From an uncultured Candidatus Saccharibacteria bacterium (GTDB lineage: Bacteria; Patescibacteriota; Doudnabacteria; UBA920), in NCBI GenBank assembly GCA_964561365.1, contig CAZLPF010000002.1, positions 10,068 to 74,067 on the forward strand: a stretch of DNA of 64,000 bases. Reading direction: 5' to 3'. The stretch's first letter is position 1. Every line of letters starts with the position of its first letter. This document shows, piece after piece, positions 21,571 through 56,211 of this stretch. The notes beneath the pieces were generated by a model. The model was not told the DNA's origin. It was given only the letters and a program-made list of their open reading frames with translations, and made no database searches. A program made the position numbers and the translations under genes.

Positions 21571-22143
21571 ATGCCAACGTACGCTTTCGAGCAGGCCCCG
21601 GGTGGGTTCGGTGCCGCCCAGCTGTTCTCGACCATCGTTCCTATTGCGGTGGTGCTCGTTCTAGTCGCCGCAGGCATTTTTGCGGCGGCGTGGTGGTGGC
21701 GAAGGCAGCAGCGCTGGCTGCTGTTCCTGAACCACCAGGAGGTTCCCGAGGTCATTGCCCTGCTGCGCGGCTCCCAGTTCGAAACCTGGGTCGAGCAGCT
21801 GCTCCGCTCCGTCGGCATCCAGGCCACCCAGGTCGGGCAGCAGGGCGACCACGGTATAGACGTGGTGGCGACCTACCGCGGCAAGAAGGTCGGCATCCAG
21901 TGTAAAAAATTTCATGACAAACTGTACATTGGTGAATCAATCATCCGCGACCTTTACGGAGCACAGCGTCATTTCGGTTACGCAGCCGTAGTCCTTTTTA
22001 CTACCACAAATTTTTCTTATTCAGCGCGGCGGTGGGCAGAGGGCAAGCGAGACCTCGCGCTTGTGAATGGCTACGCGCTTGGTAAAATTGTTAAAGATCG
22101 ACGCCTCCTCATTGAGCTTTTCGATCGGTTAGTAGGCGCCTGA
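21571..22143 (+). CDS. Membrane-anchored restriction-endonuclease-like protein (Mrr_cat domain)
   Basis: N-terminal TM helix then GDHGIDVVA ... VGIQCKK ... VLFTTTNFS pattern typical of Mrr catalytic domain (D...(D/E)xK). Confidence 0.65.
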   Translation: MPTYAFEQAPGGFGAAQLFSTIVPIAVVLVLVAAGIFAAAWWWRRQQRWLLFLNHQEVPEVIALLRGSQFETWVEQLLRSVGIQATQVGQQGDHGIDVVATYRGKKVGIQCKKFHDKLYIGESIIRDLYGAQRHFGYAAVVLFTTTNFSYSARRWAEGKRDLALVNGYALGKIVKDRRLLIELFDRLVGA

Positions 22144-27560: not shown

Positions 27561-28559
27561 TCATTTTTTCCCGTGGAAGCGTTCGTGGATTTCCCGCAGG
27601 CCCTTGTTCGTTACGTGGGTGTAGAGCTGGGTCGTGGTAATGCTCGCGTGGCCGAGCAGGCTCTGCACCGAGCGGATGTCCGCGCCGTTCTGCAGCAGGT
27701 CCGTGGCGAAGCTGTGCCGGAGCGTGTGCGGCGAGACCTTTTTGACGATACCCGCTACCTGGCAATACTTCTTGACCGTGCGCTGGACCGAGCGGGGCGT
27801 GAGGCCGGCGTTCGTCTGCTTTTCCTCATCGCGTTCGCCTTTTTTGTAGCCCTGGGACTCGATTTCACGCTCAATGCCGCCCGTTCCCACCGTGGAGTGC
27901 GCCACGAACAGGGCCTGGCTCGCGTCCGTCCGCTTTTTTAGGTACTGCCTCACGGCTTTTGAAGCTTCCGGGGAAATGAACACGATGCGGAGCTTGTCGC
28001 CCTTGCCGCGGACCGTGAACTCGCCGCGGTCGAGGTTCACGTTATTTTTTTTCAGGTGGCAGAGCTCGGAAACGCGCAGGCCGGTGGAGAAGAGGAGCTC
28101 CAAAATGGCCCGGTCCCGCAGGCGTAAGATCTCGTCATCTTCTTGTTCCGTGGCCTTGAACAGCCGCTCGAGCTCGTCTTGTTCTAGGAACTCAACCTGC
28201 CGCGCCGGGTTCTTCGGCAGCTCGACCTTTTCGGGCGCGAGCGTCTCGTGGTCCATTTTGCGGAGGTACTTCAGGAACGCCCGGAGCGCAATGAGGTGGA
28301 AGTTCTGCGTGACCATTTTGAGCGGCCGCCCGTCCGGGGTTTCGAGGCGGTTCAAAAAGAGGCGGTAGCGCTTCACGAAGTCGAGCGAAATCTGCTCGGG
28401 CTTCGTAACGCCGGCGCTCTCGGCGAACCTCACGAGGCGGCCGAGGAACCTGCTATAGTTTTCAACGGTGTTGCGGCTCTGGTTCTTACCGATCTCGCAG
28501 AACTCGAGAAAGTCGTTGACCGCGCGCTTCAGGGCCGAGAACTGTTTCTGTTTCTGCAC
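27561..28559 (-). CDS. Tyrosine site-specific recombinase, XerC/XerD-integrase family
   Basis: N-terminal core-binding domain; catalytic R...HxxR...Y residues (RVSEL, HTLRHSFAT, LLGHASITTTQLYTHV); about 40-aa insertion in catalytic domain. Confidence 0.9.
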   Translation of the reverse strand: MQKQKQFSALKRAVNDFLEFCEIGKNQSRNTVENYSRFLGRLVRFAESAGVTKPEQISLDFVKRYRLFLNRLETPDGRPLKMVTQNFHLIALRAFLKYLRKMDHETLAPEKVELPKNPARQVEFLEQDELERLFKATEQEDDEILRLRDRAILELLFSTGLRVSELCHLKKNNVNLDRGEFTVRGKGDKLRIVFISPEASKAVRQYLKKRTDASQALFVAHSTVGTGGIEREIESQGYKKGERDEEKQTNAGLTPRSVQRTVKKYCQVAGIVKKVSPHTLRHSFATDLLQNGADIRSVQSLLGHASITTTQLYTHVTNKGLREIHERFHGKK

Positions 28560-39471: not shown

Positions 39472-40890
39472 TTGATTAACGCGCCCAGCGCCATGCCGAA
39501 ACAAGAACTGGATTTGATGGATAAGATAGTCAGCCTCTGCAAACGGCGCGGCTTCATTTTCCCCGGCAGCGAAATTTACGGCGGCCTGGCCAACAGCTGG
39601 GACTACGGCCCCCTGGGGGTTGAGCTCAAGAACAACATCAAGCAGCTGTGGTGGCACCGGTTCGTCCGCGGCCGCGAAGACGTGGTCGGCGTGGATTCGG
39701 CCTACATCATGAACCCGAAAGTCTGGCAGGCTTCGGGCCACGTGGCGACCTTCAACGACCCGCTCGTCGAGGACAAAAAAACCCACGAGCGGTTTCGCCT
39801 CGACCACCTCCTCGAAGAGCGCGGCGTGAACGTTTCGGGCATGACGTTCGAGCAGATGGTCGCCAAGGTTCGAGAGCTGCAGCTGAAGTCGCCGGGCGGC
39901 AACGAGCTGACCGAACCCAAGAAGTTCAACATGATGTTCCGCACCCACCTCGGGCCCGTGGAGGATGAGGACAACACCGTGTACCTCCGGCCCGAAACGG
40001 CGCAGGGACAGTTCGTGGACTTCAAGCTCGCGCAGGAATCCATGCGGCAGCGGGTGCCGTTCGGCATCGCCCAGATCGGCCCGGCCTTTCGGAACGAAAT
40101 CACCCCCGGCAACTTCATCTTCCGCACCCGCGAGTTCGAGCAAATGGAAATAGAGTACTTCGTGAAACCCGACGACTGGGAGCGGTGGTTCGAGTACTGG
40201 CTCGAGCAGCAGAAAGCCTGGTGCAAAGACTTGCACCTGCCGGAAGACAAGACGAAGTTCGTGGAAATTCCCGAAGCCGACCGCGCCCACTACAGCAAGC
40301 GGAGCGTAGATACCGAATTCGTATTCCCGTTCGGCCAGAAAGAGCTCTACGGGCTCGCGTACCGCACCGACTTCGATCTCCAGAACCATATCAAAGCCTC
40401 CGGCCAAGACCTCTCCTACCGCGATCCGGTTTCGAACGAGGTCTTCGTACCGCACGTCATAGAGCCGACCTGGGGCGTAAACCGCACGCTACTGGCCGTA
40501 CTCTGCGCTTCGTACGAAGAGGTTGAGGCAAGGAGCGGCGACGAAGAGGCTGTGCACGAGAAAGAAATCGTCCTCCGGCTGCCGAAGCAGCTCGCGCCCA
40601 TTAAGGTGGCTATTTTACCGCTGTCTAAGAAAGAGCCGCTCCAGGGCAAGGCCCGAGAAATTGCCGCGGGTCTCAGGCAGCACTTCACCGTGCAGTACGA
40701 CGAGACCGGCAGCGTCGGCAAGCGGTACCGCCGCCAAGACGAGATTGGCACCCCGTACTGCGTCACCGTAGACTTCGACACCGAAACCGACGGCAAGGTC
40801 ACGGTCCGCGACCGCGACACCATGTCGCAAGAGCGCATTGCGGTCGCCGAGCTGTTGCCCTGGCTGCAGTCAAAGAACCTCAACCCGTAA
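39472..40890 (+). CDS. glyQS: Glycyl-tRNA synthetase, dimeric alpha2 (eukaryote/archaeal-like) type
   Basis: Class II motifs, anticodon-binding C-terminal domain, 472 aa single-chain GlyRS. Confidence 0.9.
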   Translation: MINAPSAMPKQELDLMDKIVSLCKRRGFIFPGSEIYGGLANSWDYGPLGVELKNNIKQLWWHRFVRGREDVVGVDSAYIMNPKVWQASGHVATFNDPLVEDKKTHERFRLDHLLEERGVNVSGMTFEQMVAKVRELQLKSPGGNELTEPKKFNMMFRTHLGPVEDEDNTVYLRPETAQGQFVDFKLAQESMRQRVPFGIAQIGPAFRNEITPGNFIFRTREFEQMEIEYFVKPDDWERWFEYWLEQQKAWCKDLHLPEDKTKFVEIPEADRAHYSKRSVDTEFVFPFGQKELYGLAYRTDFDLQNHIKASGQDLSYRDPVSNEVFVPHVIEPTWGVNRTLLAVLCASYEEVEARSGDEEAVHEKEIVLRLPKQLAPIKVAILPLSKKEPLQGKAREIAAGLRQHFTVQYDETGSVGKRYRRQDEIGTPYCVTVDFDTETDGKVTVRDRDTMSQERIAVAELLPWLQSKNLNP

Positions 40891-40902
40891 CTACCGAACG
40901 AC

Positions 40903-42174
40903 TTGAAATTCATCAAAACCGTCCTCAAGAACGGCCTCACGGTCGTTGAGGTCCCGAGCCACGACGCCGAGAGCGTCGTGGTTGATATTTTCGTCAAAAC
41001 CGGCTCGCGCTCCGAGCGCCCCGAAGAGTCGGGCATCTCCCACTTCCTCGAGCACTTCCTGTTCAAGGGTACCGAGCAGTACCCTTCGGCCATGGCCATT
41101 TCCGAACTCGTCGACAGCATCGGCGGTGAAATGAACGCGTCCACGGGCAAGGAGTACACGCAGTACTTCATAAAGGTCGCACACGCGCACCTGCCGACCA
41201 TCTTCGGCGTGCTCACCGACATGGTCCGCCGGCCGCTGCTCGACCCCGTTGAGCTGGAAAAAGAGAAGGGCGTCATCGTCGAAGAGATCAACATGTACAA
41301 GGACACGCCCATGTACGAGATTGAGAACGTTTTGGAACGCACCATGTGGCCACAGGACGCCCTCGGCCGGGACATTGCCGGCACGAAAGGCACGGTGACG
41401 AAGTTCACCCAGGCTATGTTCCGCCGCTACATGAAGAAGCACTACCAGACCGGCAACACCATTGTCGGCGTCTCGGGCAAGTACGACCGCAAGCAGCTCT
41501 GGTCGCTCGTAAAGAAGCACTGGGAAAAGGCGCCGCGTCAGCCCCACGGCCGCTGGGCCAAGGCCAAAGACAGGCAGACCCGTCCCCGCATCGCCCTCGA
41601 GTTCAAGCAGACCGAGCAGGCGCACCTGGCCTTCGGCTTCAAGGCGCTGCCGTACGGGCACCCGCAGACCGCCGCCCTCTCGGTTCTGGCCGCCGTGCTC
41701 GGCGGCGGCATGTCGAGCCGGCTGTTTTCCGAGGTCCGCGAGAAGCGCGGGCTGTGCTACTACGTCCGCGCCGGCGCCGGGAGCTACCAGGATACCGGCA
41801 GCTTCGGGGTGAACAGCGGCGTGCACGTCGACAAGCTCCAAGAAGCCGTCGCGGTCATCGTCGATGAGCTTAAAAAAGTGAAGCAGCACCCGGTGCCGCA
41901 GCACGAGCTTCGCAAGGCGAAGGACTACATCAAGGGCAAGACGACGCTCGCCTTAGAAGACAACCAGGTCAGGCTCGACTGGTTCTTAGAGCGCGCGGCT
42001 TTCTTTAAAAATATGATTACCCCGGTCGAGGCTTTCGCGAAAATAGAGAAGGTCACGGCCGCCGACGTCCAGGCGGTGGCGCGGCACGTCCTTACGGGCC
42101 GGAACTGCTCGTTCGCGGTCATCGGGCCATACAAGTCGAAAGCTCCGCTCCAGAAGCTCATTAAGATTGATTAA
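40903..42174 (+). CDS. M16 family zinc peptidase (insulinase-like)
   Basis: Inverted zinc motif HFLEHFLF (HxxEH) plus downstream E; TTG start. Confidence 0.85.
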   Translation: MKFIKTVLKNGLTVVEVPSHDAESVVVDIFVKTGSRSERPEESGISHFLEHFLFKGTEQYPSAMAISELVDSIGGEMNASTGKEYTQYFIKVAHAHLPTIFGVLTDMVRRPLLDPVELEKEKGVIVEEINMYKDTPMYEIENVLERTMWPQDALGRDIAGTKGTVTKFTQAMFRRYMKKHYQTGNTIVGVSGKYDRKQLWSLVKKHWEKAPRQPHGRWAKAKDRQTRPRIALEFKQTEQAHLAFGFKALPYGHPQTAALSVLAAVLGGGMSSRLFSEVREKRGLCYYVRAGAGSYQDTGSFGVNSGVHVDKLQEAVAVIVDELKKVKQHPVPQHELRKAKDYIKGKTTLALEDNQVRLDWFLERAAFFKNMITPVEAFAKIEKVTAADVQAVARHVLTGRNCSFAVIGPYKSKAPLQKLIKID

Positions 42175-42227
42175 TATCCATTAACGTTAATCAATACTCA
42201 TCAACATTAATTAACGTTGATTAATCT
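42161..42227 (+). promoter_or_regulatory. AT-rich palindromic motif A (TTAATCAATACTCATCAACATTAATTAACGTTGATTAA and ATTAACGTTAAT palindromes)
   Basis: About 25% GC island in 65% GC genome; near-identical core at 52571-52619. Confidence 0.4.
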
Positions 42228-42380
42228 ATGGTGAAGCGGATTGCCATGACGAAAGCCCGGGTGCACCTCGGCAAGCTCGTGCGCGAGGTCTTTACCTCCG
42301 GCGCGAGTTTCGTGCTCACGAAGGCCGGCCTCCCCGTGGCGGCCATTGTGCCGGCCCCGAAAAAGAAAGTACGGCGCTAG
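42228..42380 (+). CDS. Mini Phd/YefM-like antitoxin-domain protein (50 aa), orphan
   Basis: MTKARVHLGKLVREV...GASFVLTKAGLPVAAIVPA matches the N-terminal beta-alpha pattern of Phd/YefM antitoxins; below ORF-track length cutoff; no adjacent toxin gene. Confidence 0.45.
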   Translation: MVKRIAMTKARVHLGKLVREVFTSGASFVLTKAGLPVAAIVPAPKKKVRR

Positions 42381-42425
42381 CGCCCCCTCCGGCGTTCCGG
42401 TCGTCCCGTTAACGTTCGATGAACC

Positions 42426-43292
42426 GTGCCGAAAGCTTCTGAAAATATTCAAAACCCGATTGGCTGTCACGTTTCCATAGCCGGCGGCGTGCAGAACGCG
42501 CCCGGCAACGCGGCGGCACTCGGCTGCGAAGCCTTCCAGATTTTTTCGCGCAGCCCGCAGGGCGGTCCGGCGCCGAAGCTGACCGGAGAGGTGCTCGCCG
42601 CGTTCCGCGCGGCCATGGACGAGCACGGGTACCGGCAGTTCGTCATTCATGCTCCGTACTACATAAACTTCGGCTCGGGGAAACCCGCAACCTACCAGGC
42701 GAGCATCCGGGTCATCCGCGAGGAGCTCGAGCGCGGCACCAGCTTGGGCGCCGCGTACCTCATGTTCCACCCCGGCAGCGGCAAGGACCTGGGCAGCGAG
42801 GCGGCCCTGAAGCAAGCCCGGGGCGGCATAAAAAAAGTCCTCGACGGCTACGCCGGGAGCTGCAAGCTCTTAATAGAGAATGCGGCCGGGGCCGGCGAGA
42901 TCCTCGGCGACACGTTCGAGGAGGTCGCGCTTTTAGCCGAGCCGATTTTAGAGCACCCGGGCTTCGGGGGCGTGTGCCTCGACACCCAGCACAGCTTCGC
43001 GAGCGGCTACGACCTGCGTTCAGCGGCAGCGGTAGCTGAAACCATGAAAAAGTTCGACGCCGCCGTAGGCCTCCGGTACCTAGCCTGCGTCCACGCGAAC
43101 GACTCGAAACCGGGCTTGGGTGAGCGCAAGGATCGGCACGATCACGTCGGTTCCGGGCAGATCGGCGAAGGGGGGTTCTCTGCGATTTTAAAATTTTTAC
43201 AGAAAAAAAAGATGGACGTCCCGGTTATCCTCGAAACAGAGCACGATCTGGTTAAGAAGGACATTGCCGCGCTCAAGCGCCTCCGCGGCTGA
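42426..43292 (+). CDS. nfo: Endonuclease IV (AP endonuclease family 2)
   Basis: TIM-barrel AP endonuclease with metal-binding His/Asp/Glu pattern (HAPYYINFGS, HVGSGQIGEGGF). Confidence 0.9.
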   Translation: MPKASENIQNPIGCHVSIAGGVQNAPGNAAALGCEAFQIFSRSPQGGPAPKLTGEVLAAFRAAMDEHGYRQFVIHAPYYINFGSGKPATYQASIRVIREELERGTSLGAAYLMFHPGSGKDLGSEAALKQARGGIKKVLDGYAGSCKLLIENAAGAGEILGDTFEEVALLAEPILEHPGFGGVCLDTQHSFASGYDLRSAAAVAETMKKFDAAVGLRYLACVHANDSKPGLGERKDRHDHVGSGQIGEGGFSAILKFLQKKKMDVPVILETEHDLVKKDIAALKRLRG

Positions 43293-48429: not shown

Positions 48430-51400
48430 ATGCCCACTGACCGCTACGATCCAAAAAAAGTAGAAGCCCGATGGCAGAAGCACTGGCTGGCCAAAAAGGT
48501 TTTCAAGGCCAAGGATTTTTCGAAGCGGCCGAAGAAGTACATACTCGTGGAGTTCCCGTACCCGTCGGGCGCGGGCCTGCACATGGGCCACCTGCGCCCG
48601 TACGTCGCCGCCGACGTTTACACCCGCTTCCAGCGCGCGCGCGGACACGAGGTGCTGTTCCCCATCGGCTGGGACGCCTTCGGCCTGCCGGCCGAGAACT
48701 ACGCCATAAAGAACGGCGTGCACCCGAGCGTGTCCACGGCGCAGAACGTGAAGAACGCGAAAGCGCAAATGTTGTCGTGGGGTTTGTCGTTCGACTGGGA
48801 CCGGGAAATCAACACCACCGACCCGAGCTACTACCGTTTTACCCAGCGCATCTTCTTAGAGCTCTACCGCGCGGGGTTGGCCTACGAAGCCACCGGCATG
48901 ATCAACTGGTGCCCGAAGGACAAGACGGGCCTGGCCAACGAAGAGGTCATAGACGGCAAGTGCGAACGCTGCGGCACCGTGGTGGAGAAAAAAGAGCTAC
49001 GGCAGTGGTACCTGAAAATTACCGACTACGCCGACTCCCTGCTCGAGGGTTTGAACGAGCTGCCCGAATGGCCCGAACAGGTCAAGCTCCAGCAGGCGAA
49101 CTGGATCGGCAAGAGCGAGGGGCTCGTTGAGCGCTGGCAGGTTCAAGACATGGACCTCACGCTCGAAACGTTCACGACCTGGCCGCACACGACCTGGGGC
49201 GCGACCTTCATGGTCGTGGCGCCCGAACACCCGGTCATAGATCGGCTCGTGGGCGGCACCGAGCTCGAGAGCGGCGCCAAAAAATTCGCGGCGCGCTGCA
49301 TTGAGGCCAAGATTAAAGATCCCCTGAACGTCGCGAAGGAAAAAGAAGGCTTCTTCACCGGCCGCTACGCCGTAAACTACCTCACCGGTTGGAAGATGCC
49401 CATCTACATTGCCAACTTCGCCATTTACGATTACGGCACCGGTCTGGTGAAGTGCACGCCGGCGCACGACGAGCGCGACTTCGAGTTTGCTAAAAAGTAC
49501 CAGCTGCCGCTCGTGCCGGTGGTGGCGCCCATGGTGGAAGCCGACAACAGCGACTCGGCGCCGAAGCCCGGCCAGCCGGCCCGGAGCCTCGATGTCGCCT
49601 TCTGCGTTATCAAGCACGCGAAACAAGACCGCTACCTGGTGGTCAAGCACCACCGCAGCGGCGTGGACGGCTACCTGGCGTGCTCTGGCTCGCTCGAACC
49701 CGGAGAGACGCCGGAGCAGGCCGGGGAACGCGAGATTCGCGAGGAAACAGGCCTGAAGCATTTCCGTTTCATCCGTTCGCTCGGCGAGCCGGTCTACTTC
49801 AAGTACTTCAAGCCGAGCAAGAACGAGAACCGGCTCCTGAAGCTCATGCCGCTCTACTTTGAGGCTGACTCTGACGAACTCGAACCCACGACCGACTACG
49901 AGAAGGCCAAGCAGGAACCGGTGTGGCTCGACGGAAAAGACATAGAGAAGTTCCTCCGCACCCGTCCGTTCCACCGGACCTTCTACCGCCGCATGCGCGG
50001 CGAGGAGCCGCTCGAGCCGAAAATGGCCGCCGCCTACACCGGCGAAGGCGTCATGATCAACGCCGGCAAATTTATCGGCATGGAGAGCGGGGAAGCGCGC
50101 AGGGCCATTTCGGAGTTTTCCATTGCCGAAGGCCACGCCCGCTACGTGACCAACTACCGCCTGCGCGACTGGGTCTTTTCGCGCCAGCGCTACTGGGGCG
50201 AGCCTATTCCGCTCATCCACTGCGACGCCTGCGCGAGCCGGCCGCAGAAAGCGCTCCTCATTCACGGCTTCGAGGGCAGCCCTGAAGCGAACGAGTTTCC
50301 GTACCTGAAGCGAGAGCTCGAAGCGGCCGGCTTTACCGTCGTGGCACCGAAGCTCGAGGACGCCGACCATCCTACGGTGGAGTCTTGGACCAAGCAGCTC
50401 GTACCGCTCGTGCAGCAGCTCGGGCCGGACGACGTGGTCATGGGCCACAGCCTCGGAGCCAAGGCCGCCATTCTCGCGCTCCTGAAAGCCAAGAAAAAGA
50501 TCAAACACCTGTTCTTAATTGCGGGCACGCTCGGCAAGCTCTCCAAACCGCAGCGCGCCTTCTTTGACCGCGAGTGGCCGGACTCCGACAACGCGGCGCT
50601 CGAAAAGTTCTGGAACGCGCCGGCGAGCCTGAACCAAGCTTCCCGCCTGGCCGGCGAGGTGACTGCGGTACTCTCGGAAGACGACCCGTTCGTTTTGAAA
50701 GAGACCCACGAAAAGCTTCCCCGGAGCTGGAACGTGCTCTTTTGGCAGGGCTACGGCCACTTCGACGGCGAAGTGTACCCCGAGCTGCTCAAGCTCATCC
50801 TGTCAGCGAAGAACAGCGGCATTGTGCCGGTGCCGGAAAAAGATCTGCCGGTGCGCCTGCCGAACGTTGCCAAGTACGAACCGACGGGAACGGGGGAGTC
50901 GCCGCTCGCCGGCATCGACAGCTGGGTCAACGTCCGCTGCCCGGTCTGCAAGGGCCCGGGCCGGCGCGAGACGAACACCATGCCGCAGTGGGCCGGCAGC
51001 AGCTGGTACTGGCTGCGCTATGCAGACCCCAAAAATACCAAAGCCATTGCAGACAAGAGGAAGCTCGGCTACTGGCAGCCGGTTGATGTTTACTTCGGCG
51101 GCATGGAGCACACGACGCTGCACCTGCTCTACGCCCGTTTCTGGAATCAATTCCTCTTCGACCGCGGGCTCGCCACCTGCCGCGAGCCGTTCGAAAAGCG
51201 CGTGCCGCACGGCATTGTCCTCGGCCCCGACGGCGAGAAGATGTCCAAGAGCCGCGGCAACGTGGTGAACCCGCAGGACTTCGTGGAGAAGTTCGGCGCG
51301 GACGCGACCCGCATGTACGAAATGTTCCTTGGGCCGCACGGCGAAACCATCGCCTGGAACGAGCAGGGTATTTTGGGCGTCCGCCGCTTCCTCGACCGCG

Positions 51401-51924
51401 TCTGGACCTGGGGCAACGAAGTTGTCTCTGCCCCGCACGCGAAACAGAAAACCGCCGTTGAAACCGAGAAGGTCGACCGCCTGCTCCACAAGCTGACGAA
51501 GAAAATTACCGAAGACCTCAACGCGTTCCGTTTCAACACCTGCGTCTCGGCGTTCATGGAGTTCCATAACGAGGTCAAAGACGAATTCATTTCACTCGCG
51601 GGTCTGCGCCGGTTCCTGTCCCTCATGCATCCGTTCGCGCCGCACCTTGCTGAAGAGCTGGCGAGCTGCGCCGGGGTAAAGCGCAGCCTGCAGCTTGAGC
51701 CGTGGCCCGAGTTCGACCCGGCAAAGGTTGCCGACGCGACCGTGACCGTCGTGGTGCAGGTCAACGGAAAAGTTCGCGGCAGCATGGAGGTGGCGGCGAC
51801 CGCACCGCAAGATGAAGTTCAGGCAAAAGCCGTAGCGCTCCCGTCGGTGAAAGCCCACCTCGGCGGCGGGGTCATCAAGCGCGCGGTCTTCGTGCCCGGC
51901 AAGCTTTTAAACCTGGTTGTGTAG
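48430..51924 (+). CDS. leuS: Leucyl-tRNA synthetase with two inserted enzymatic domains (NUDIX and alpha/beta serine hydrolase)
   Basis: HMGH, editing domain (TTWPHT...PAHDERD), YRLRDWVFSRQRYWGEPIP, KMSKS; single uninterrupted 1164-aa ORF, about 300 aa longer than typical LeuRS. Confidence 0.9.
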   Translation: MPTDRYDPKKVEARWQKHWLAKKVFKAKDFSKRPKKYILVEFPYPSGAGLHMGHLRPYVAADVYTRFQRARGHEVLFPIGWDAFGLPAENYAIKNGVHPSVSTAQNVKNAKAQMLSWGLSFDWDREINTTDPSYYRFTQRIFLELYRAGLAYEATGMINWCPKDKTGLANEEVIDGKCERCGTVVEKKELRQWYLKITDYADSLLEGLNELPEWPEQVKLQQANWIGKSEGLVERWQVQDMDLTLETFTTWPHTTWGATFMVVAPEHPVIDRLVGGTELESGAKKFAARCIEAKIKDPLNVAKEKEGFFTGRYAVNYLTGWKMPIYIANFAIYDYGTGLVKCTPAHDERDFEFAKKYQLPLVPVVAPMVEADNSDSAPKPGQPARSLDVAFCVIKHAKQDRYLVVKHHRSGVDGYLACSGSLEPGETPEQAGEREIREETGLKHFRFIRSLGEPVYFKYFKPSKNENRLLKLMPLYFEADSDELEPTTDYEKAKQEPVWLDGKDIEKFLRTRPFHRTFYRRMRGEEPLEPKMAAAYTGEGVMINAGKFIGMESGEARRAISEFSIAEGHARYVTNYRLRDWVFSRQRYWGEPIPLIHCDACASRPQKALLIHGFEGSPEANEFPYLKRELEAAGFTVVAPKLEDADHPTVESWTKQLVPLVQQLGPDDVVMGHSLGAKAAILALLKAKKKIKHLFLIAGTLGKLSKPQRAFFDREWPDSDNAALEKFWNAPASLNQASRLAGEVTAVLSEDDPFVLKETHEKLPRSWNVLFWQGYGHFDGEVYPELLKLILSAKNSGIVPVPEKDLPVRLPNVAKYEPTGTGESPLAGIDSWVNVRCPVCKGPGRRETNTMPQWAGSSWYWLRYADPKNTKAIADKRKLGYWQPVDVYFGGMEHTTLHLLYARFWNQFLFDRGLATCREPFEKRVPHGIVLGPDGEKMSKSRGNVVNPQDFVEKFGADATRMYEMFLGPHGETIAWNEQGILGVRRFLDRVWTWGNEVVSAPHAKQKTAVETEKVDRLLHKLTKKITEDLNAFRFNTCVSAFMEFHNEVKDEFISLAGLRRFLSLMHPFAPHLAEELASCAGVKRSLQLEPWPEFDPAKVADATVTVVVQVNGKVRGSMEVAATAPQDEVQAKAVALPSVKAHLGGGVIKRAVFVPGKLLNLVV
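49540..50019 (+). other. NUDIX hydrolase domain inserted in LeuRS after the editing domain
   Basis: Perfect Nudix box GSLEPGETPEQAGEREIREETGL (Gx5Ex7REUxEExGU) at 49687-49755; insertion bounded by LeuRS segments AKKYQLPLVPVV and GVMINAGKF. Confidence 0.7.
50236..50814 (+). other. Alpha/beta serine-hydrolase domain (RBBP9/YdeN-like) inserted inside LeuRS zinc knuckle
   Basis: LIHGFEGS, nucleophile elbow GHSLG (50443-50457), DDP and GHF triad elements; inserted between HCDAC and conserved VPVPEKDLPVRLP / RCPVC. Confidence 0.7.
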
Positions 51925-51925
51925 G

Positions 51926-52582
51926 GTGCGGGCCGCTGACCCAAAATCGAAATCCGAACGCGCCTTGCAGGAGGCGCTTTCGTTTCTTAAGGCGGGCAAG
52001 GTGGTAGCCTACCCGACAGACACCTCGTACGGCCTCGCGGCCGACGCGAGCAACGCGTGGGCGGTTTTGCGCCTCTACCGCATAAAAGAGCGCAGCTTCA
52101 AGCAGCCCGTCCACGTTGTGGTAGGGTCGGTTGCTCAGGCCAAGCGGATTGTCGCATGGAACCGTACGGCCGGTCGGCTCGCTAGAAAATTTTGGCCCGG
52201 ACCGCTCACGCTCGTGCTGCCGCTCCGGTCACGCGCCCCGCTCCTCAAAAAATTGAGCGCACGTACCGGGTACTTAGGTTTGCGCATGCCGAAGCATCCG
52301 TTCGTTGCCGCGCTTTCCCGCGCATTCAAGCGGCCGTACACCGCTACGAGCGCGAACCCTTCGGGTGCGCGTTCGGGCGGCTACGACAGCTACTCCGCCG
52401 CCGACGTAGTGGTACAATTCAGCAAGCGGCGCCACCGCCCCGACGTGGTCATCGACGGCGGCCGGCTGCGGCGTACGAAACCCTCCACCGTGGTGAAAGT
52501 TGCCGGCGACGGCCGCGTGAGCGTCCTCCGATCGGGACCCGTTTCGAAATCAGAAATCAAAAAAGCAATTCATCAACGGTAA
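51926..52582 (+). CDS. tsaC: L-threonylcarbamoyladenylate synthase (Sua5/YrdC/TsaC family)
   Basis: KVVAYPTDTSYGLAADA signature; start uncertain (TTG 51917 overlapping leuS stop, or GTG 51926). Confidence 0.8.
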   Translation: MRAADPKSKSERALQEALSFLKAGKVVAYPTDTSYGLAADASNAWAVLRLYRIKERSFKQPVHVVVGSVAQAKRIVAWNRTAGRLARKFWPGPLTLVLPLRSRAPLLKKLSARTGYLGLRMPKHPFVAALSRAFKRPYTATSANPSGARSGGYDSYSAADVVVQFSKRRHRPDVVIDGGRLRRTKPSTVVKVAGDGRVSVLRSGPVSKSEIKKAIHQR

Positions 52583-52619
52583 TCAAGGTTAATCAATACC
52601 CATCAACATTGATTAATCC
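52571..52619 (+). promoter_or_regulatory. AT-rich palindromic motif B (CATCAACGGTAATCAAGGTTAATCAATACCCATCAACATTGATTAATCC)
   Basis: Shares core TTAATCAATAC(Y)CATCAACATT(R)ATTAA with motif A; inverted repeat TTAATCAA / TTGATTAA. Confidence 0.4.
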
Positions 52620-52640: not shown

Positions 52641-53789
52641 ATGATTTTCCACTTCCACTTCCCGCACTACTTCACGAAGCGCGTGCGGACAGAAGTTTCC
52701 GAGCTCTACGCCTCGAGTGCGATTTCCAACCTCGGGCTCTCGCTCGTCATGCTGTTCGAGCCCATTTTCCTGCACGTCGGCGTCGGGCTCTCGGTTCCGC
52801 AGGTGCTCTGGTTCATGGCCGGGGTTTACGCGATTTACATACTCTGCATTCCCGCCGGCGCCTGGCTCGCGAGCGTCCTCGGCTACCGCCGGACGCTCGC
52901 CGCCGCCGCGCCGCTCCAGATTGGCTACTGGCTCCTGCTGGCCGCGGCCGTCTCGCACCCCGTGGTCCTGCCGCTCGCCGCCGCCGCCTTCGGGCTCCAG
53001 AAGGCGGCCTACTGGCCGGCCTTCCACGCCGTACTCGCCCGCTACGGGCGCGAGCAGCAGGTCGGCCGCGAGTTCGGGGCCGTGAACTTCATCGTCATGG
53101 CTTCGCACATCGTCGGGCCGCTCATCGGCGGGTTCGTTTCCCAAGCCTACGGCGTACCGGCGACCCTCGTCGTCGCCTCGGTCGTCTGCCTCTGCTCGGC
53201 CATACCGCTCCTCGAAACGCCCGAGCGGTTCACGCCGAAACCCTACCGCTTCCAGGATACGCTCGCACTCTACCGCCGCTTCCCCCGCTTCGCGGCCGGA
53301 TACCTCGGCTTCGGCGAGGAGCTGCTCGTGCTGACCATCTGGCCCATATTCATGTACGCGGTCGTCAAGAACTTCGGGGGCACCGGCGCGCTCGCCACGG
53401 CGTCGTCGGTAGCGGCGGCGCTGTTTGCCCTCGCCATGGGCAAGCTCTCCGACCAGTACACGAAGCGCATGCTCATTCGCGTCGGCGCGGGCCTCACCGC
53501 CATAGTCTGGATGCTCCGGACCACCGTCTCGAGCGTCGGCGGCGTGTTCGCGGCTGACGCGCTGTCGCAGACCTCGAAAGAGGTCGCCTTCGTTCCGCTC
53601 TCGGCGCTCACGTACGTCCGCGCCGAAGAAACCCACATCCTGCCGTACGCCGTATTCTTCGAGCAGAGCCTGTCGGTCGGCAAGCTCGCGGCGGCAATCG
53701 TCGGCGCCGTGCTCTTTTCCCTGACCGGCAGCTACGCAGTCCTATTCTTCCTGGCGGCCCTGTTCTCGCTCATGTACACTTTACTGTGA
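52641..53789 (+). CDS. MFS transporter
   Basis: 382 aa, about 12 TM helices in 6+6 arrangement; family assigned by eye. Confidence 0.7.
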   Translation: MIFHFHFPHYFTKRVRTEVSELYASSAISNLGLSLVMLFEPIFLHVGVGLSVPQVLWFMAGVYAIYILCIPAGAWLASVLGYRRTLAAAAPLQIGYWLLLAAAVSHPVVLPLAAAAFGLQKAAYWPAFHAVLARYGREQQVGREFGAVNFIVMASHIVGPLIGGFVSQAYGVPATLVVASVVCLCSAIPLLETPERFTPKPYRFQDTLALYRRFPRFAAGYLGFGEELLVLTIWPIFMYAVVKNFGGTGALATASSVAAALFALAMGKLSDQYTKRMLIRVGAGLTAIVWMLRTTVSSVGGVFAADALSQTSKEVAFVPLSALTYVRAEETHILPYAVFFEQSLSVGKLAAAIVGAVLFSLTGSYAVLFFLAALFSLMYTLL

Positions 53790-53882: not shown

Positions 53883-55184
53883 ATGAACTACGCATCTCTC
53901 GAATCCGGCGACCCTGAAATCTACCGGCTCATCCGCGGCGAAGAACGGCGGCAATCCCGCGGCATGGAGCTCATCGCGAGCGAGAACTACACGTCGCCCG
54001 CGGTCCTCGAGGCGCTCGGTTCGGTCCTCACGAACAAGTACTCCGAAGGGTACCCCGGCAAGCGCTACTACGGAGGCCAGGAATTTACCGATCAGGTTGA
54101 GCAGCTCTGCATAGACCGCGCCAGGGCGCTCTTCCGATGCGACCACGCGAACGTCCAGCCGCTGTCGGGTGCCGCGGCCAACGTCGCCGCCTACTTTTCC
54201 TGGCTCGAGCCCGGCGACACGGTCCTCGGCATGGACCTCAGCCACGGCGGCCACCTGACCCACGGCAGCCCGGTCACGTACATCAGCAAGCTGTTCCGCT
54301 TCGTGCGCTACAAGATGCGGGACGTGGAGACCGGCGCCATTGACTTCGACGAGCTCCGGCAGACCGCGCTCCGGGAGAAGCCGAAAATAATCCTCGCCGG
54401 TTTCTCGGCCTACCCGCGCGAGCTCGACTACGCGGCCTTCAAGAAAATCGCCGACGAGGTTGGGGCCATTGCCATGGCCGACGTGGCCCACATTGCCGGG
54501 CTCATTGCCGCCGGCGTTCTGAAGAACCCGTTCGACTTCGGCTTCAACATGGTTACGACCACGACGCACAAGACGCTCCGCGGCCCCCGCGGCGGCATGA
54601 TCTTAACGCGCGGCACGGTGGGCAATCCCCTCAAGCAGGTTGAGAAAACCGTGGGAAACCTCCCGACGCTCGTTGACCGGTCGGTGTTTCCGGGGTTCCA
54701 GGGCGGGCCGCACGAGCACCAGATCGCCGGCATTGCGGTGGCGCTCCACGAAGCCGGCCAGCCGGAATTTAAAACCTACGCCGCGCAGGTCGTGAAGAAT
54801 GCCGCGGCCATGGCCGCGGAGCTCATGAGCCTGGGCGGCAAGCTCGTGACGAACGGAACCGACAACCACCTCATGGTCGTAAACTGCGACCAGACGTGGG
54901 GGACCGACGGCGCCGAAGTCGAGCACGTCCTCGACGCCATTGGCATCACCGCGAGCAAGAGCACGGTTCCCGACGACCCGAAACCCCCGTACAAACCCTC
55001 GGGCCTGCGGCTCGGGAGCCCGGCCATGACCACGCGCGGCCTCGGTGAAGCGGAGTTTAAACAGATCGCCCGCTGGATTGACCGCGCGGTGAAAGCCCGC
55101 AGCCAGGCCGATGAAATTGCCAAGCTGAAAGCCGAGGTCGAGGCGCTCTGCGCGCAGCACCCGGTGCCCGGGATCGGTAACTAG
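53883..55184 (+). CDS. glyA: Serine hydroxymethyltransferase
   Basis: PLP-lysine motif TTTHKTLRGPRGG; full-length SHMT. Confidence 0.95.
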   Translation: MNYASLESGDPEIYRLIRGEERRQSRGMELIASENYTSPAVLEALGSVLTNKYSEGYPGKRYYGGQEFTDQVEQLCIDRARALFRCDHANVQPLSGAAANVAAYFSWLEPGDTVLGMDLSHGGHLTHGSPVTYISKLFRFVRYKMRDVETGAIDFDELRQTALREKPKIILAGFSAYPRELDYAAFKKIADEVGAIAMADVAHIAGLIAAGVLKNPFDFGFNMVTTTTHKTLRGPRGGMILTRGTVGNPLKQVEKTVGNLPTLVDRSVFPGFQGGPHEHQIAGIAVALHEAGQPEFKTYAAQVVKNAAAMAAELMSLGGKLVTNGTDNHLMVVNCDQTWGTDGAEVEHVLDAIGITASKSTVPDDPKPPYKPSGLRLGSPAMTTRGLGEAEFKQIARWIDRAVKARSQADEIAKLKAEVEALCAQHPVPGIGN

Positions 55185-55192
55185 GCTGCTGC

Positions 55193-56014
55193 ATGCCGAG
55201 CGTATTCCAGGCACTCGTCCTCGGGCTCGTCCAGGGGCTGACCGAATTTTTACCGGTTTCGTCTTCCGCGCACCTCGCCGTTGCCCCGTGGCTCGCGGGC
55301 TGGCAAGACCCGGGCCTCGCGTTCGACATCGCCCTCCACTGGGGTACGCTGCTGGCCGTGCTCCTGTACTTCCGGCTCGATATCTGGAACCTCGCGCGGG
55401 GGTTCTGGCACAGCCTCTGGCCCTCGACGCGCGATTTTTCAGAGAACATATACCAGAAGCTCTCGTGGTTCGTCGTGGTTGCCACCATCCCCGGCGCCGT
55501 TGCCGGCAAGCTCCTCGAGCGAGCGGCTGAGCAGCAGTTCCGAGCGCCGCTGCTCATTGCCTGCACGCTCGCCGTCTTCGGCGTCGTTCTATTCATCGCC
55601 GACCGGCTCGGCACGAAAGGCAAAAACCTCGACCGCATGACCTGGACAGACGCGCTGCTCGTCGGTCTCGCCCAGGCCTTCGCCATTGTTCCCGGCGTGT
55701 CGCGGAGCGGCGCGACCATTGCCGCGGCCCTCGGCCGCGGCATGACGCGCGCCGATGCCGCGCGCTTCTCGTTCCTCCTGTCGGCGCCCATAATCTTCGG
55801 GGCCGGCGTCTTGAAGCTCCCCGAGCTCCGGCACGCGAGCGACGTGAGCGGCGTGGCGCTCGCCGTCGGGTTCTTCGCCTCGGCCGTTTCTGGCTACCTC
55901 GCCATCCGCTTCCTGCTCCGCTACCTTTCCACGAAGAGCTACGCGGTGTTCACCTGGTACCGCCTCGCGGCCGCGGCTTTGATCGTACTGCTGTGGTTTG
56001 GTAGAATGCGCTGA
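55193..56014 (+). CDS. uppP: Undecaprenyl-diphosphate phosphatase
   Basis: BacA family motifs GLTEFLPVSSSAHL and PGVSRSG. Confidence 0.9.
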   Translation: MPSVFQALVLGLVQGLTEFLPVSSSAHLAVAPWLAGWQDPGLAFDIALHWGTLLAVLLYFRLDIWNLARGFWHSLWPSTRDFSENIYQKLSWFVVVATIPGAVAGKLLERAAEQQFRAPLLIACTLAVFGVVLFIADRLGTKGKNLDRMTWTDALLVGLAQAFAIVPGVSRSGATIAAALGRGMTRADAARFSFLLSAPIIFGAGVLKLPELRHASDVSGVALAVGFFASAVSGYLAIRFLLRYLSTKSYAVFTWYRLAAAALIVLLWFGRMR

Positions 56015-56108: not shown

Positions 56109-56211
56109 CATGGCTGCAGCCTGCGAGTACTGAATGTGTTCAGTCCTCTCTGGCTTTCGCCACCAACTCCTCCTACCCGATGAACCTGTCCGGGGTTCAT
56201 GGCAATCCCAA

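What the first reader, a model, noticed from the sequence alone, without database searches (positions are those of the whole stretch)
42161..42227. Recurrent AT-rich palindromic motif (about 25% GC) in gene 3' / 5' junctions, copy A
Seen in sequence: the text TTAATCAATACTCATCAACATTAATTAACGTTGATTAATC, preceded by ATTAACGTTAAT (a perfect 12-bp palindrome), lies between the M16 peptidase stop and the ATG of the mini-antitoxin gene. A near-identical core, TTAATCAATACCCATCAACATTGATTAATCC, occurs 10.4 kb away at 52571-52619. Both contain the inverted repeat TTAATCAA...TTGATTAA and the word CATCAAC twice. In a 65% GC genome, a repeated 40-50-bp island of 25% GC cannot be explained by chance. Inference: operator sites for a shared dimeric regulator, or a compact promoter module (TTGATT -35-like and ATTAAT/ATACT -10-like, 0-25 nt from the downstream start codons).
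Basis: seen in the sequence. Interest (0 to 1): 0.5.

Follow-up and report, generated by a model that had tools for sequence, protein, structure and literature searches.

The report
Operator arrays of a mini-antitoxin regulator
Two AT-rich islands in a GC-rich candidate-phyla-radiation (Patescibacteria) genome are rows of an 8-bp palindrome (TTRATYAA) spaced exactly one DNA turn apart, and the same rows precede related genes in other organisms, so they are most likely docking sites for the tiny toxin-less Phd/YefM-type DNA-binding protein encoded next to one of them.

Summary
A 28-nt core occurs only at 42187 and 52589, against 0 expected by chance.

Both islands are arrays of the 8-bp pseudo-palindrome TTRATYAA, repeated every 10.0 bp. 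Array A has 7 positions and array B has 5. Both run into the last codons of the upstream gene and end 3 nt (A) or 24 nt (B) before the next start codon.

Array A abuts a 50-aa gene. Its product has the Phd/YefM antitoxin DNA-binding fold (AlphaFold2 pLDDT 90; all top PDB matches are Phd/YefM-type) but no toxin-binding tail, and there is no toxin gene.

The decisive evidence is comparative. Homologues of this protein (42-52% identity) in three unrelated metagenomic contigs with 37-42% GC carry the same TTRATYAA sites. The sites have the same 10-bp spacing and lie directly before the start codon. No such site pair occurs in 1.4 Mb of control DNA.

My best explanation is that these are cognate operator arrays:
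- A is the autoregulatory operator of the mini-Phd gene.
- B is a second, gene-less operator before an MFS transporter operon.

No binding has been shown. No further copies could be retrieved, because this lineage is absent from the searchable collections. I rate it a new variant of a known kind, of moderate interest.

The parts
42157..42226 (+). Array A: seven 10-bp positions of TTRATYAA plus a 2-bp linker. Perfect sites are at 42167-74 (TTGATTAA), 42187-94 (TTAATCAA), 42207-14 (TTAATTAA) and 42217-24 (TTGATTAA). Sites matching 6 of 8 are at 42157-64, 42177-84 and 42197-204. The array is 24% GC.
42172..42174 (+). Stop codon TAA of the M16 peptidase gene (40903-42174), lying inside array A. 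The last four sense codons (ATT AAG ATT GAT) form part of the array.
42192..42197 (+). AATACT, the only -10-like hexamer in array A. It matches 5 of 6 positions of this genome's own TATACT consensus. It is a possible embedded promoter element and is not validated.
42228..42380 (+). Mini-Phd gene (50 aa). It encodes the Phd/YefM N-terminal DNA-binding fold with a basic tail (PKKKVRR), no toxin-binding C-terminal region, and no toxin gene follows. It is the proposed binder of the arrays.
42489..43292 (+). nfo (endonuclease IV, Pfam AP_endonuc_2), the next gene 108 bp after mini-Phd. The pairing of mini-Phd with nfo recurs in another organism (the contig carrying P0123).
52569..52618 (+). Array B: five 10-bp positions. 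Perfect sites are at 52589-96 (TTAATCAA) and 52609-16 (TTGATTAA). Sites matching 7 of 8 are at 52569-76 and 52579-86. A 5-of-8 site is at 52599-606. There is no Phd-like gene next to it. AT-richness begins about 52546, inside the Sua5 gene.
52580..52582 (+). Stop codon TAA of the Sua5/YrdC-family gene (51917-52582), lying inside array B.
52641..53789 (+). MFS transporter gene. Its ATG is 24 nt after the last site of array B. It is followed by SHMT (53883-55184) and BacA/UppP (55193-56014). It is the putative second target of the regulator.
39472..39479 (+). The only TTRATYAA match outside the arrays (TTGATTAA). It lies about 24 nt after the -10 (TGCTATACT) and 13 nt before the ATG (39493) of the class II tRNA-synthetase gene that heads the M16 gene string. 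It may be a weak single site or a chance match.

Best explanation
The two islands are multi-site operators for a small DNA-binding protein of the Phd/YefM antitoxin fold.

**Binding model.** The recognition unit is the 8-bp pseudo-palindrome TTRATYAA. Each unit would take one protein dimer. Units recur every 10 bp, so successive dimers would line up on about the same face of the helix and bind cooperatively.

**Array A** ends 3 nt before the start codon of the 50-aa mini-Phd gene. It is that gene's autoregulatory operator and covers whatever promoter and leader the gene has. Bound protein would block RNA polymerase, by promoter occlusion or as a roadblock, and so set its own level. It would probably also set the level of the downstream nfo gene.

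**Array B** shares the 28-nt core, lacks one unit and has no Phd gene. It is a second target in front of the MFS-SHMT-UppP gene string. On this reading a toxin-less, truncated antitoxin has been domesticated as a small transcription factor.

**Shown:**
- the sequence anatomy and its statistics;
- the fold of the protein;
- conservation of the same sites, at the same spacing, directly upstream of homologous genes in other organisms.

**Inferred:**
- binding itself;
- the stoichiometry of one dimer per 8-mer;
- repression as the outcome;
- that array B is functional.
For: 1. **Anatomy.** Exact 10-bp phasing of 7 and 5 units occurs nowhere else in the window. TTRATYAA occurs 7 times against 0.95 expected. 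Two-site matches number 10 against 0.21 expected.
2. **Adjacent gene.** The 50-aa ORF has coding-type composition (GC3 0.84). It matches Pfam Phd_YefM at E 5.6e-5. A profile built from it and its relatives retrieves 2695 proteins, nearly all carrying PF02604. The AlphaFold2 model has pLDDT 90.4. Its PDB matches are Phd/YefM-fold antitoxins, including the isolated Phd N-terminal DNA-binding domain (4zlx) and the Phd-operator complex (4zm2). R11 is invariant and K32 nearly invariant. By my own alignment they correspond to YefM R10 and R31, which are needed for DNA binding (PMC4803016).
3. **Decisive comparative evidence.** The same sites at the same spacing lie directly upstream of homologues in unrelated, low-GC contigs:
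   - L319/L320 (P0124, 57 aa): TTAATTAA-CA-TTAATCAA-TC-TTAATCAA-T-ATG. Its 22 nt ATTAATTAACATTAATCAATCT align with the window's ATTAATTAACGTTGATTAATCT with only 3 transitions.
   - L321 (P0129, 50 aa): five sites, at -54 to -14.
   - L323 (P0128, 78 aa): two sites. This gene is paired with a ParE toxin.
   - L316 and L314, which carry longer homologues, have related words (TTAATCGATAC, AATCAATCGAT) just after their -10 elements.
4. **Control.** Two adjacent perfect sites occur 0 times in 1.24 Mb of 80 Patescibacteria loci, 85 kb of syntenic relatives and 100 kb of random metagenome hits.
5. **Lineage distribution.** Syntenic relatives that lack the mini-Phd gene also lack both arrays at the orthologous gene junctions.
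6. **Precedent.** Antitoxins of this fold repress their own promoters through adjacent palindromes about one helical turn apart. The YefM L and S palindromes are 12 bp apart centre to centre (PMC1802561, PMC4803016).
Against: - No binding, transcription-start or expression data exist.
- Only two arrays are known in this organism, and the rest of its genome could not be reached.
- Array B has no adjacent regulator gene. It could be a relic or a recent copy; the 28-nt near-identity with A looks more like recent duplication than independent selection.
- No recognisable promoter lies in or after array B. The only -10-like hexamer there is AATACC.
- One divergent homologue (P0131, locus L322) has no such sites.
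- Similar phased AT-rich arrays in phage contigs lie next to replication genes or an integrase and have no Phd gene nearby. The geometry alone therefore does not identify the binder.
- The 50-aa protein lacks the third helix of full-length family members, so dimerisation is assumed rather than shown.
Confidence: 0.65

Rival explanations
1. The islands act as RNA. Transcribed within the gene strings, they would fold into long AU-rich hairpins at the end of the upstream cistron. These would control mRNA processing or stability, or would occlude the downstream start codon (in A the 3' arm pairs across the mini-Phd AUG).
For: Sense-strand folds are -18.8 kcal/mol (z -3.1) for A and -19.2 kcal/mol (z -3.3) for B. 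The hairpin in B is well defined, with 19 pairs and a 10-nt loop. The antisense strands fold less significantly (z -1.85 and -0.64). Both arrays carry extended imperfect inverted repeats.
Against: - A hairpin does not require, and does not explain, exact 10-bp phasing of same-orientation words.
- The homologous arrays in L319 and L321 are plain tandem runs of the 8-mer, not a conserved long hairpin.
- The palindromic folds follow automatically from tandem palindromic units.
- There is no Rfam match.
- This genome's terminators are GC-rich stems with T tracts, and the terminator scan finds none here.
Confidence: 0.1
2. The arrays bind a different protein. Candidates are an OmpR/PhoB-type response regulator (head-to-tail on 10-bp direct repeats), a nucleoid-associated protein, or the ParB encoded at 56134. 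On this reading the neighbouring Phd-like gene is merely one of the regulated genes.
For: ATYAA is perfectly conserved in direct orientation in 12 of 12 units. The 10-bp direct-repeat geometry and 20-bp super-unit resemble OmpR/PhoP-type site arrays (my own knowledge). parB is in the window and no canonical parS is found within 3 mismatches. Phage arrays of similar sequence are associated with other proteins.
Against: - The sites travel with the Phd-subfamily gene across organisms whose other neighbours differ (nfo, NUDIX, ORF6N, ParE). This is what is expected for a regulator and its own operator.
- No response regulator or other DNA-binding domain turned up in the roughly 50 of 66 predicted window proteins scanned against Pfam.
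- The unit is palindromic, which suits a symmetric dimer.
Confidence: 0.1
3. The arrays are a compact promoter module, or an AT-rich UP-like or translation-enhancer leader, with no dedicated repressor.
For: Both arrays sit directly before start codons that lack a Shine-Dalgarno sequence. A contains AATACT, which matches 5 of 6 positions of the genome's -10 consensus. In L319 a good TTGACT-17-TATACT promoter immediately precedes the sites.
Against: - There is no sigma-70 consensus match in either array.
- B has AATACC, without the essential final T.
- The roughly 20 recognisable promoters of this genome look quite different (often TGG or TGC before TATACT or TACCAT) and none carries these words.
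- A promoter does not need 5 to 7 phased palindromes.
Confidence: 0.08
4. The islands are selfish or structural DNA with no regulatory role. Options are a small palindromic mobile repeat (REP/MITE-like), recombinase att or arm-type sites, or a 10-bp minisatellite that was duplicated once.
For: The 28-nt core is nearly identical between A and B. A equals B plus one extra unit, as replication slippage would produce. The arrays are absent from relatives. A phage or island array of similar words lies between an integrase gene and a probable tmRNA 3' end. A Xer-like recombinase gene is in the window.
Against: - There are only two copies in 64 kb and none in the metagenome scan.
- I saw no terminal repeats with target duplications.
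- The 10.4 kb between A and B consists of housekeeping genes in the same order as in relatives, so A and B are not attL and attR.
- Conservation of the 8-mer and its spacing upstream of homologous genes in distant organisms is not expected for junk.
Confidence: 0.05

Closest known systems
Autoregulatory operators of Phd/YefM-family type II antitoxins (E. coli yefM-yoeB L and S palindromes; P1 phd-doc operator)
   Same: - The sites lie directly upstream of a Phd/YefM-fold gene.
- They consist of adjacent short palindromes about one helical turn apart (12 bp centre to centre for YefM; PMC4803016, PMC1802561).
- The motif is conserved upstream of homologues.
- The basic residues equivalent to YefM R10 and R31 are conserved.
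   Different: - The sequence is TTRATYAA, not TGTACA.
- There are 5 to 7 phased positions instead of 2.
- The spacing is 10 bp.
- The protein is truncated to the DNA-binding domain and has no toxin partner.
- A second array stands before an unrelated operon.
Antitoxins that also regulate host genes (for example MqsA acting on rpoS and csgD through mqsRA-like palindromes; PMC4803016)
   Same: An operator-like site sits away from the antitoxin's own locus, upstream of a cellular gene.
   Different: MqsA has a different fold (helix-turn-helix plus zinc) and keeps its toxin. Here the regulator has lost both its toxin and its toxin-binding tail. Nothing has been tested experimentally.
Omega repressor of pSM19035 and ParR/ParG-type centromere or operator arrays
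   Same: One dimer binds per short repeat, and dimers polymerise cooperatively along arrays of contiguous repeats in mixed orientation. Omega binds NATCACN heptads (PMC4803016).
   Different: Those proteins have a ribbon-helix-helix fold. Their repeat periods are 7 bp or 11 bp. They act in plasmid partition and copy control.
OmpR/PhoB-family site arrays and phage or plasmid iterons
   Same: These are 10-11-bp phased repeats covering 40-70 bp. Phage contigs retrieved here have very similar arrays (ATCAAGGTTA repeated, TTAATTAA repeated) next to replication genes or an integrase.
   Different: Those are bound head-to-tail by winged-helix regulators, initiators or integrase arm-binding domains. 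No such gene is linked to the arrays here, and no Phd gene is linked to the phage arrays.

Membership tests
Phd/YefM antitoxin autoregulatory operator | Lies in the promoter or leader region immediately upstream of a Phd/YefM-family gene | tested here: met
   Array A ends 3 nt before the ATG of the mini-Phd gene. Array B does not meet this: there is no Phd-like ORF near it.
Phd/YefM antitoxin autoregulatory operator | Two or more adjacent (pseudo)palindromic repeats at a fixed spacing of about one helical turn | tested here: met
   TTRATYAA sites recur at exact 10-bp intervals.
Phd/YefM antitoxin autoregulatory operator | The same motif is conserved upstream of homologous antitoxin genes in other genomes | tested here: met
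   L319/L320, L321 and L323 carry 2 to 5 phased sites directly before the start codon. Control DNA totalling 1.4 Mb has none. L322 lacks them.
Phd/YefM antitoxin autoregulatory operator | Bound and repressed by the antitoxin dimer, with the toxin as co-repressor | not testable with these tools
   Needs EMSA or footprinting and reporter assays.
Type II toxin-antitoxin module | A cognate toxin gene in the same operon, and a toxin-binding C-terminal region on the antitoxin | tested here: not met
   The protein ends at residue 50 after the DNA-binding fold. The next gene is nfo, after a 108-bp gap. The full-length relative P0128 does have a ParE toxin.
Phd/YefM protein family (PF02604), for the 50-aa product | Sequence match to the family model at its curated threshold | tested here: inconclusive
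   The score is 23.3 bits against the gathering cut-off of 29.8. However, a profile search from it and its relatives returns 2695 proteins, almost all pre-annotated PF02604.
Phd/YefM protein family (PF02604), for the 50-aa product | N-terminal beta-alpha-alpha-beta-beta DNA-binding fold | tested here: met
   The AlphaFold2 model has pLDDT 90.4 with elements E2-6, H7-12, H14-24, E27-32 and E35-40. Foldseek top hits are 3g5o, 6jqy, 9g12, 4zlx, 2a6q and 4zm2, all antitoxins of this fold, with TM-score 0.65-0.77 normalised by query length.
Sigma-70-type promoter | -35 and -10 hexamers with 16-18-nt spacing (or this genome's own -10, TATACT or TACCAT, often preceded by TGG/TGC) | tested here: not met
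   No consensus match in either array. The best hexamers are AATACT in A and AATACC in B, against the genome's own promoters.
Intrinsic terminator | GC-rich stem followed by a T tract | tested here: not met
   The scan finds none at the arrays. The predicted stems are AU-rich and have no T tract.
REP/MITE-like repeat | Many dispersed copies; terminal inverted repeats with target-site duplication | tested here: inconclusive
   There are 2 copies in 64 kb, none in the other collections, and I saw no target duplications. The rest of the genome could not be examined.
Recombinase att or arm-type sites | They flank a mobile segment and lie adjacent to an integrase gene or a tRNA/tmRNA gene | tested here: not met
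   The 10.4 kb between A and B is syntenic housekeeping DNA in relatives. No tRNA or integrase gene is adjacent.
Known RNA families (Rfam 15) | Covariance-model match at the gathering score | tested here: not met
   Only 7 tRNAs are found in the window.
Chromosomal parS | 16-bp palindrome TGTTNCACGTGAAACA | tested here: not met
   No match within 3 mismatches anywhere in the window.

The most novel reading that the evidence does not exclude
A toxin-less, 50-aa remnant of a Phd/YefM antitoxin has been domesticated in some Patescibacteria as a genuine transcription factor. It would polymerise on phased TTRATYAA arrays and control housekeeping functions: DNA repair and nucleotide sanitation genes (nfo, NUDIX) next to its own gene, and a transporter/one-carbon/cell-wall operon at a distance. 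If so, this would be, to my knowledge, one of the first sequence-defined regulator-operator pairs, and a minimal regulon, in the candidate phyla radiation. The regulator is small enough to be made by peptide synthesis.
Probability: 0.35. Interest if true: 0.6.

Novelty: new variant of a known kind. Interest (0 to 1): 0.5.

Why it matters
Almost nothing is known about transcriptional regulation in the candidate phyla radiation, because the organisms are largely uncultured and their genomes encode few recognisable regulators. This finding gives a concrete, testable pairing. The protein is 50 aa and can be made synthetically. The DNA word is defined (TTRATYAA every 10 bp). There are two candidate targets. 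It would also document a path by which an addiction-module antitoxin loses its toxin and its toxin-binding tail and survives as a cellular repressor. The operator motif appears to be new for the Phd/YefM family. If binding fails, the element remains an unexplained, strikingly regular structure.

Tried and rejected
**Searches for more copies**
- A MetRS-anchored scan of GTDB genomes returned 80 Patescibacteria loci with at most 60% identity. The source genome is not in that collection, and none of the loci has phased arrays.
- The metagenome scan with TTAATCAATNNNCATCAACATT gave 19 hits. All are in AT-rich contigs without arrays, about the number I calculated for chance.
- Generic phased patterns tried on viral contigs are swamped by tandem repeats of AT-rich viruses.

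**Close relatives for footprinting**
- The nearest M16 homologue is only 68% identical.
- Two Logan contigs are the same species and their array A is identical. One differs from the window by 1.9% over 4.4 kb, which is too little divergence to test a 70-bp element.

**Motifs considered and rejected**
- IHF consensus WATCAANNNNTTR: checked by eye on both strands, with no match; here the spacing between ATCAA and TTR is 2 nt, not 4.
- parS: no match.
- A dif/Xer-type 11-6-11 reading of the 28-nt core: two direct copies would delete essential genes, and their central regions differ.
- attL/attR of an island: the DNA between the arrays is syntenic in relatives.
- Integron attC: the R'/R'' core sequences do not fit.
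- CIRCE, CtsR, ArgR, ArcA and B. subtilis PhoP boxes: these are resemblances from memory only, and the associated genes do not fit.
- Patescibacteria LexA/SOS boxes: a literature lead only, and the relevant paper is not held in the library.

**Other checks**
- Phage arrays were tested for adjacent Phd-like genes with a subfamily HMM; none was found.
- DNA curvature was not computed, because I had no reliable parameter set.
- The exact-sequence look-up of P0001, which should be the source contig, returned nothing.
- The contig carrying P0123 has no DNA available.
Full report
**1. The observation**

The 28-nt pattern TTAATCAATACYCATCAACATTRATTAA matches only at 42187 and 52589, even with three mismatches allowed, and none is expected by chance.

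The islands are 22-24% GC (A) and 31-32% GC (B), in a window of 62.7% GC. Three details need correcting:
- The stop codons of the upstream genes lie inside the islands: M16 TAA at 42172-74 and Sua5 TAA at 52580-82.
- The last codons of both genes are abnormally AT-ending for a genome with GC3 of 0.72-0.86. The constraint therefore reaches into coding sequence.
- CATCAAC occurs twice only in B.

**2. Anatomy**

Written in lines of ten, copy A reads ATTAAGATTG / ATTAATATCC / ATTAACGTTA / ATCAATACTC / ATCAACATTA / ATTAACGTTG / ATTAATCTAT, followed by the G that completes the start codon ATG. Copy B reads ATCAACGGTA / ATCAAGGTTA / ATCAATACCC / ATCAACATTG / ATTAATCCGG.

- ATYAA stands at exact 10-bp intervals seven times in A and five times in B. 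No other run of two or more on the + strand exists in 64 kb, and periods of 9 or 11 bp give none.
- Tandem Repeats Finder reports periods of 10 and 20.
- A equals B plus one extra unit.
- Shifting the frame by three bases shows that the unit is the 8-bp pseudo-palindrome TTRATYAA plus a 2-bp linker. Perfect sites alternate with sites matching 5-7 of 8 positions.
- TTRATYAA occurs 7 times in the window against 0.95 expected. Six are in the arrays; the seventh is at 39472, in the leader of the class II tRNA-synthetase gene that heads the M16 gene string.
- The two-site pattern matches 10 times against 0.21 expected, all in the arrays.
- Because the units are palindromic, the arrays also contain many nested inverted repeats.

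**3. Context**

The window comes from a Patescibacteria (CPR) genome:
- The M16 protein is 100% identical to an NCBI protein on a 77.6-kb contig. The next best homologue is 68% identical.
- MetRS is at most 60% identical to any GTDB species representative, and all the best hits are Patescibacteria MAGs.
- Two short Logan contigs carry the same species with an identical array A.

The gene order class II tRNA synthetase - M16 - nfo - AI-2E - MetRS - LeuRS - Sua5 - MFS - SHMT is kept in relatives of 41-49% GC. In those relatives M16 abuts nfo or a NUDIX gene, and Sua5 abuts the MFS gene. They have no AT-rich array and no small gene there.

Array A and the 50-aa gene that follows it are thus absent from the nearest syntenic relatives. 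No phased array occurs in 1.25 Mb of 80 other Patescibacteria loci.

**4. What the arrays are not**

- There is no sigma-70 consensus promoter and no terminator in either array.
- This genome's own promoters are unusually clear. The -10 is TATACT or TACCAT, often preceded by TGG or TGC, and often only 6-7 nt from the start codon, which suggests leaderless mRNAs. The arrays offer only AATACT (A) and AATACC (B).
- Rfam finds only tRNAs.
- No parS is present, although parB is in the window.
- The sense strands are predicted to fold into long AU-rich hairpins (-18.8 and -19.2 kcal/mol; z -3.1 and -3.3). This is expected of tandem palindromes and does not explain the 10-bp phasing.

**5. The neighbouring gene**

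ORF 42228-42380 has coding-type composition (GC3 0.84) and a sub-threshold Pfam Phd_YefM match (E 5.6e-5).

- A word-based search found only the protein itself.
- An exhaustive HMMER search of 1.84 billion representatives found 12 relatives at E up to 0.001. They include other 50-59-aa proteins with basic tails (P0123, P0124, P0129, P0131) and members of 78-120 aa.
- A profile of these retrieved 2695 proteins, almost all annotated PF02604.
- A48-sequence alignment gave an AlphaFold2 model with pLDDT 90.4 and a beta-alpha-alpha-beta-beta topology.
- The Foldseek matches in the PDB are antitoxins of the Phd/YefM fold. They include the isolated N-terminal DNA-binding domain of P1 Phd (4zlx), Phd on its operator (4zm2) and YefM-YoeB on DNA (6l8e). 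A profile search of PDB sequences agrees weakly.
- R11 is invariant and K32 nearly so. By my alignment they correspond to YefM R10 and R31, reported as essential for DNA binding (PMC4803016).
- The protein stops where the toxin-binding region of full-length members begins, and no toxin gene follows. The next gene is nfo, after 108 bp.

**6. The decisive comparison**

I fetched the DNA around homologues of the mini-protein. Positions below are site starts relative to the A of the ATG.

| Locus | Protein | Sites upstream of the ATG | Downstream gene |
|---|---|---|---|
| Window, array A | mini-Phd, 50 aa | -61, -41, -21, -11 (perfect); 6-of-8 sites at -71, -51, -31 | nfo, after 108 bp |
| L319/L320, groundwater, 38% GC | P0124, 57 aa, 48% identical | -29, -19, -9: TTAATTAA-CA-TTAATCAA-TC-TTAATCAA-T-ATG, preceded by TTGACT-17-TATACT | ORF6N-domain gene |
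| L321, 37% GC | P0129, 50 aa | -54, -44, -34, -24, -14: TTGATTAA-CG-TTAATTAA-CA-TTGATTAA-TA-TTAATTAA-AA-CTAATCAA | NUDIX gene |
| L323, 42% GC | P0128, 78 aa | -23, -13: TTGATTAA-TG-TTAATCAA; the contig starts 27 nt before the ATG | ParE-family toxin |
| Window, array B | none adjacent | -72, -62, -52, -32 before the MFS start codon | MFS transporter |

- In L319, 22 nt (ATTAATTAACATTAATCAATCT) differ from the window's ATTAATTAACGTTGATTAATCT by three transitions.
- Longer homologues in a 68%-GC organism (L316-318) and a Nitrospiraceae MAG (L314/315) have related words (TTAATCGATAC, the reverse complement of CATCAACAATT, AATCAATCGAT) just downstream of their -10 elements.
- A more divergent member (P0131, L322) has none.
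- Two adjacent perfect sites occur nowhere in 1.24 Mb of unrelated Patescibacteria loci, 85 kb of syntenic relatives or 100 kb of random metagenome hits.
- By my calculation, the chance of two perfect sites at 10-bp spacing within 60 nt of a start codon in 38%-GC DNA is about 2e-6 per locus.

**7. Explanation**

Antitoxins of this fold repress their own promoters by binding adjacent palindromes about one helical turn apart. The YefM L and S palindromes have TGTACA cores 12 bp apart (PMC1802561, PMC4803016).

The conserved link between the gene subfamily and TTRATYAA sites at 10-bp spacing, across organisms of 37-63% GC and with different neighbouring genes, is what a regulator and its own operator would show. 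I therefore read the two arrays as follows:
- Array A is the autoregulatory operator of the mini-Phd gene. It covers that gene's promoter and leader.
- Array B is a second operator of the same protein in front of MFS-SHMT-UppP.

The full-length member with a ParE toxin carries the same sites, so the operator motif looks ancestral to the clade. The 50-59-aa toxin-less forms next to nfo, NUDIX or ORF6N look like domesticated derivatives.

Binding, stoichiometry, repression and the functionality of B are inferences. My confidence is 0.65.

**8. Rivals**

- RNA hairpin: 0.10.
- Another DNA-binding protein: 0.10.
- A bare promoter or leader: 0.08.
- Selfish or recombination-site DNA: 0.05.

The main caution is that phage and island contigs contain very similar phased arrays with other partners. 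L231 has one beside an O-like replication initiator gene. L274 has one near a primase-helicase gene. L125 has one between a gene that looks like a P4-type integrase and a probable tmRNA 3' end. No Phd-like gene lies next to any of them. Geometry alone therefore does not name the binder; the gene linkage does.

**9. Novelty and limits**

The kind of element is known: an antitoxin-type autoregulatory operator. Four things appear to be new:
- the motif itself;
- the length and strict phasing of the arrays;
- the truncation of the regulator to a bare DNA-binding domain without a toxin;
- a gene-less second array before housekeeping genes.

I could not reach the rest of this genome. The lineage is absent from the GTDB representatives and from the JGI metagenomes. 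The size of any regulon is therefore unknown.

Noticed in passing
window 48430-51924: The LeuRS gene encodes 1164 aa, against 805-814 aa in syntenic relatives. The extra ~400 residues (about 389-785, after the editing domain) match NUDIX and serine-hydrolase/alpha-beta-hydrolase domains. In relative L203 a separate NUDIX gene sits between M16 and nfo. This could be a real domain insertion or an assembly or frame artefact.
   Followed up: no
window, upstream regions of about 20 genes (for example 2061, 19233-, 21571, 25230-, 28607, 44665): The -10 consensus is very uniform: TATACT or TACCAT, often preceded by TGG or TGC. It often ends only 6-7 nt before the start codon, which implies widespread leaderless mRNAs in this Patescibacteria genome.
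   Followed up: partly
window 56134-57309: ParB (N-terminal, HTH and C-terminal domains all present) carries an N-terminal extension of about 120 aa. No parA was seen beside it, and there is no canonical parS within 3 mismatches anywhere in the 64 kb.
   Followed up: partly
loci L319 (P0124), L321 (P0129), L323 (P0128); JGI 3300078620 contig (P0123): Toxin-less 50-59-aa Phd-domain proteins with basic tails recur in metagenomes next to nfo, NUDIX or ORF6N-domain genes. A 78-aa relative keeps a ParE toxin. This looks like a series from antitoxin to solo regulator.
   Followed up: partly
L125 9299-9340; L231 2990-3045; L274 9268-9330; also L131, L267, L293: Phage and island contigs carry 10-bp phased arrays of nearly the same words (TTAATCAA/TTAATTAA, ATCAAGGTTA repeated). 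They lie between a gene that looks like a P4-type integrase and a probable tmRNA 3' end (L125), after an O-like replication initiator gene (L231), or near a primase-helicase gene (L274). They are probably arm-type sites or iterons. No Phd-like gene is adjacent.
   Followed up: partly
window 39472-39479: A single TTGATTAA sits in the leader of the class II tRNA-synthetase gene that heads the M16 gene string, 13 nt before its ATG and about 24 nt after the TGCTATACT -10 element. It may be a weak third target or a chance match.
   Followed up: no
window 27561-28559 (- strand): A Xer-like tyrosine recombinase gene (332 aa). The relative L203 also has a tyrosine recombinase gene upstream of its S15-PNPase genes. 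The surrounding 19-31 kb region has lower GC (0.53-0.61) and holds an Mrr-like restriction endonuclease gene (21571-22143) and three tRNA genes.
   Followed up: no
window 6787-6921: A 66-bp tandem repeat (2 copies, 81% matches) lies inside an ORF (6370-6999) that has no Pfam match.
   Followed up: no
window 42130-42517 versus L001: A second strain (run DRR685536) differs from the window at 85 of 4423 positions, but at none between 42130 and 42517, the stretch that holds array A and the mini-Phd gene. The differences are clustered elsewhere, so this is only suggestive of constraint.
   Followed up: partly
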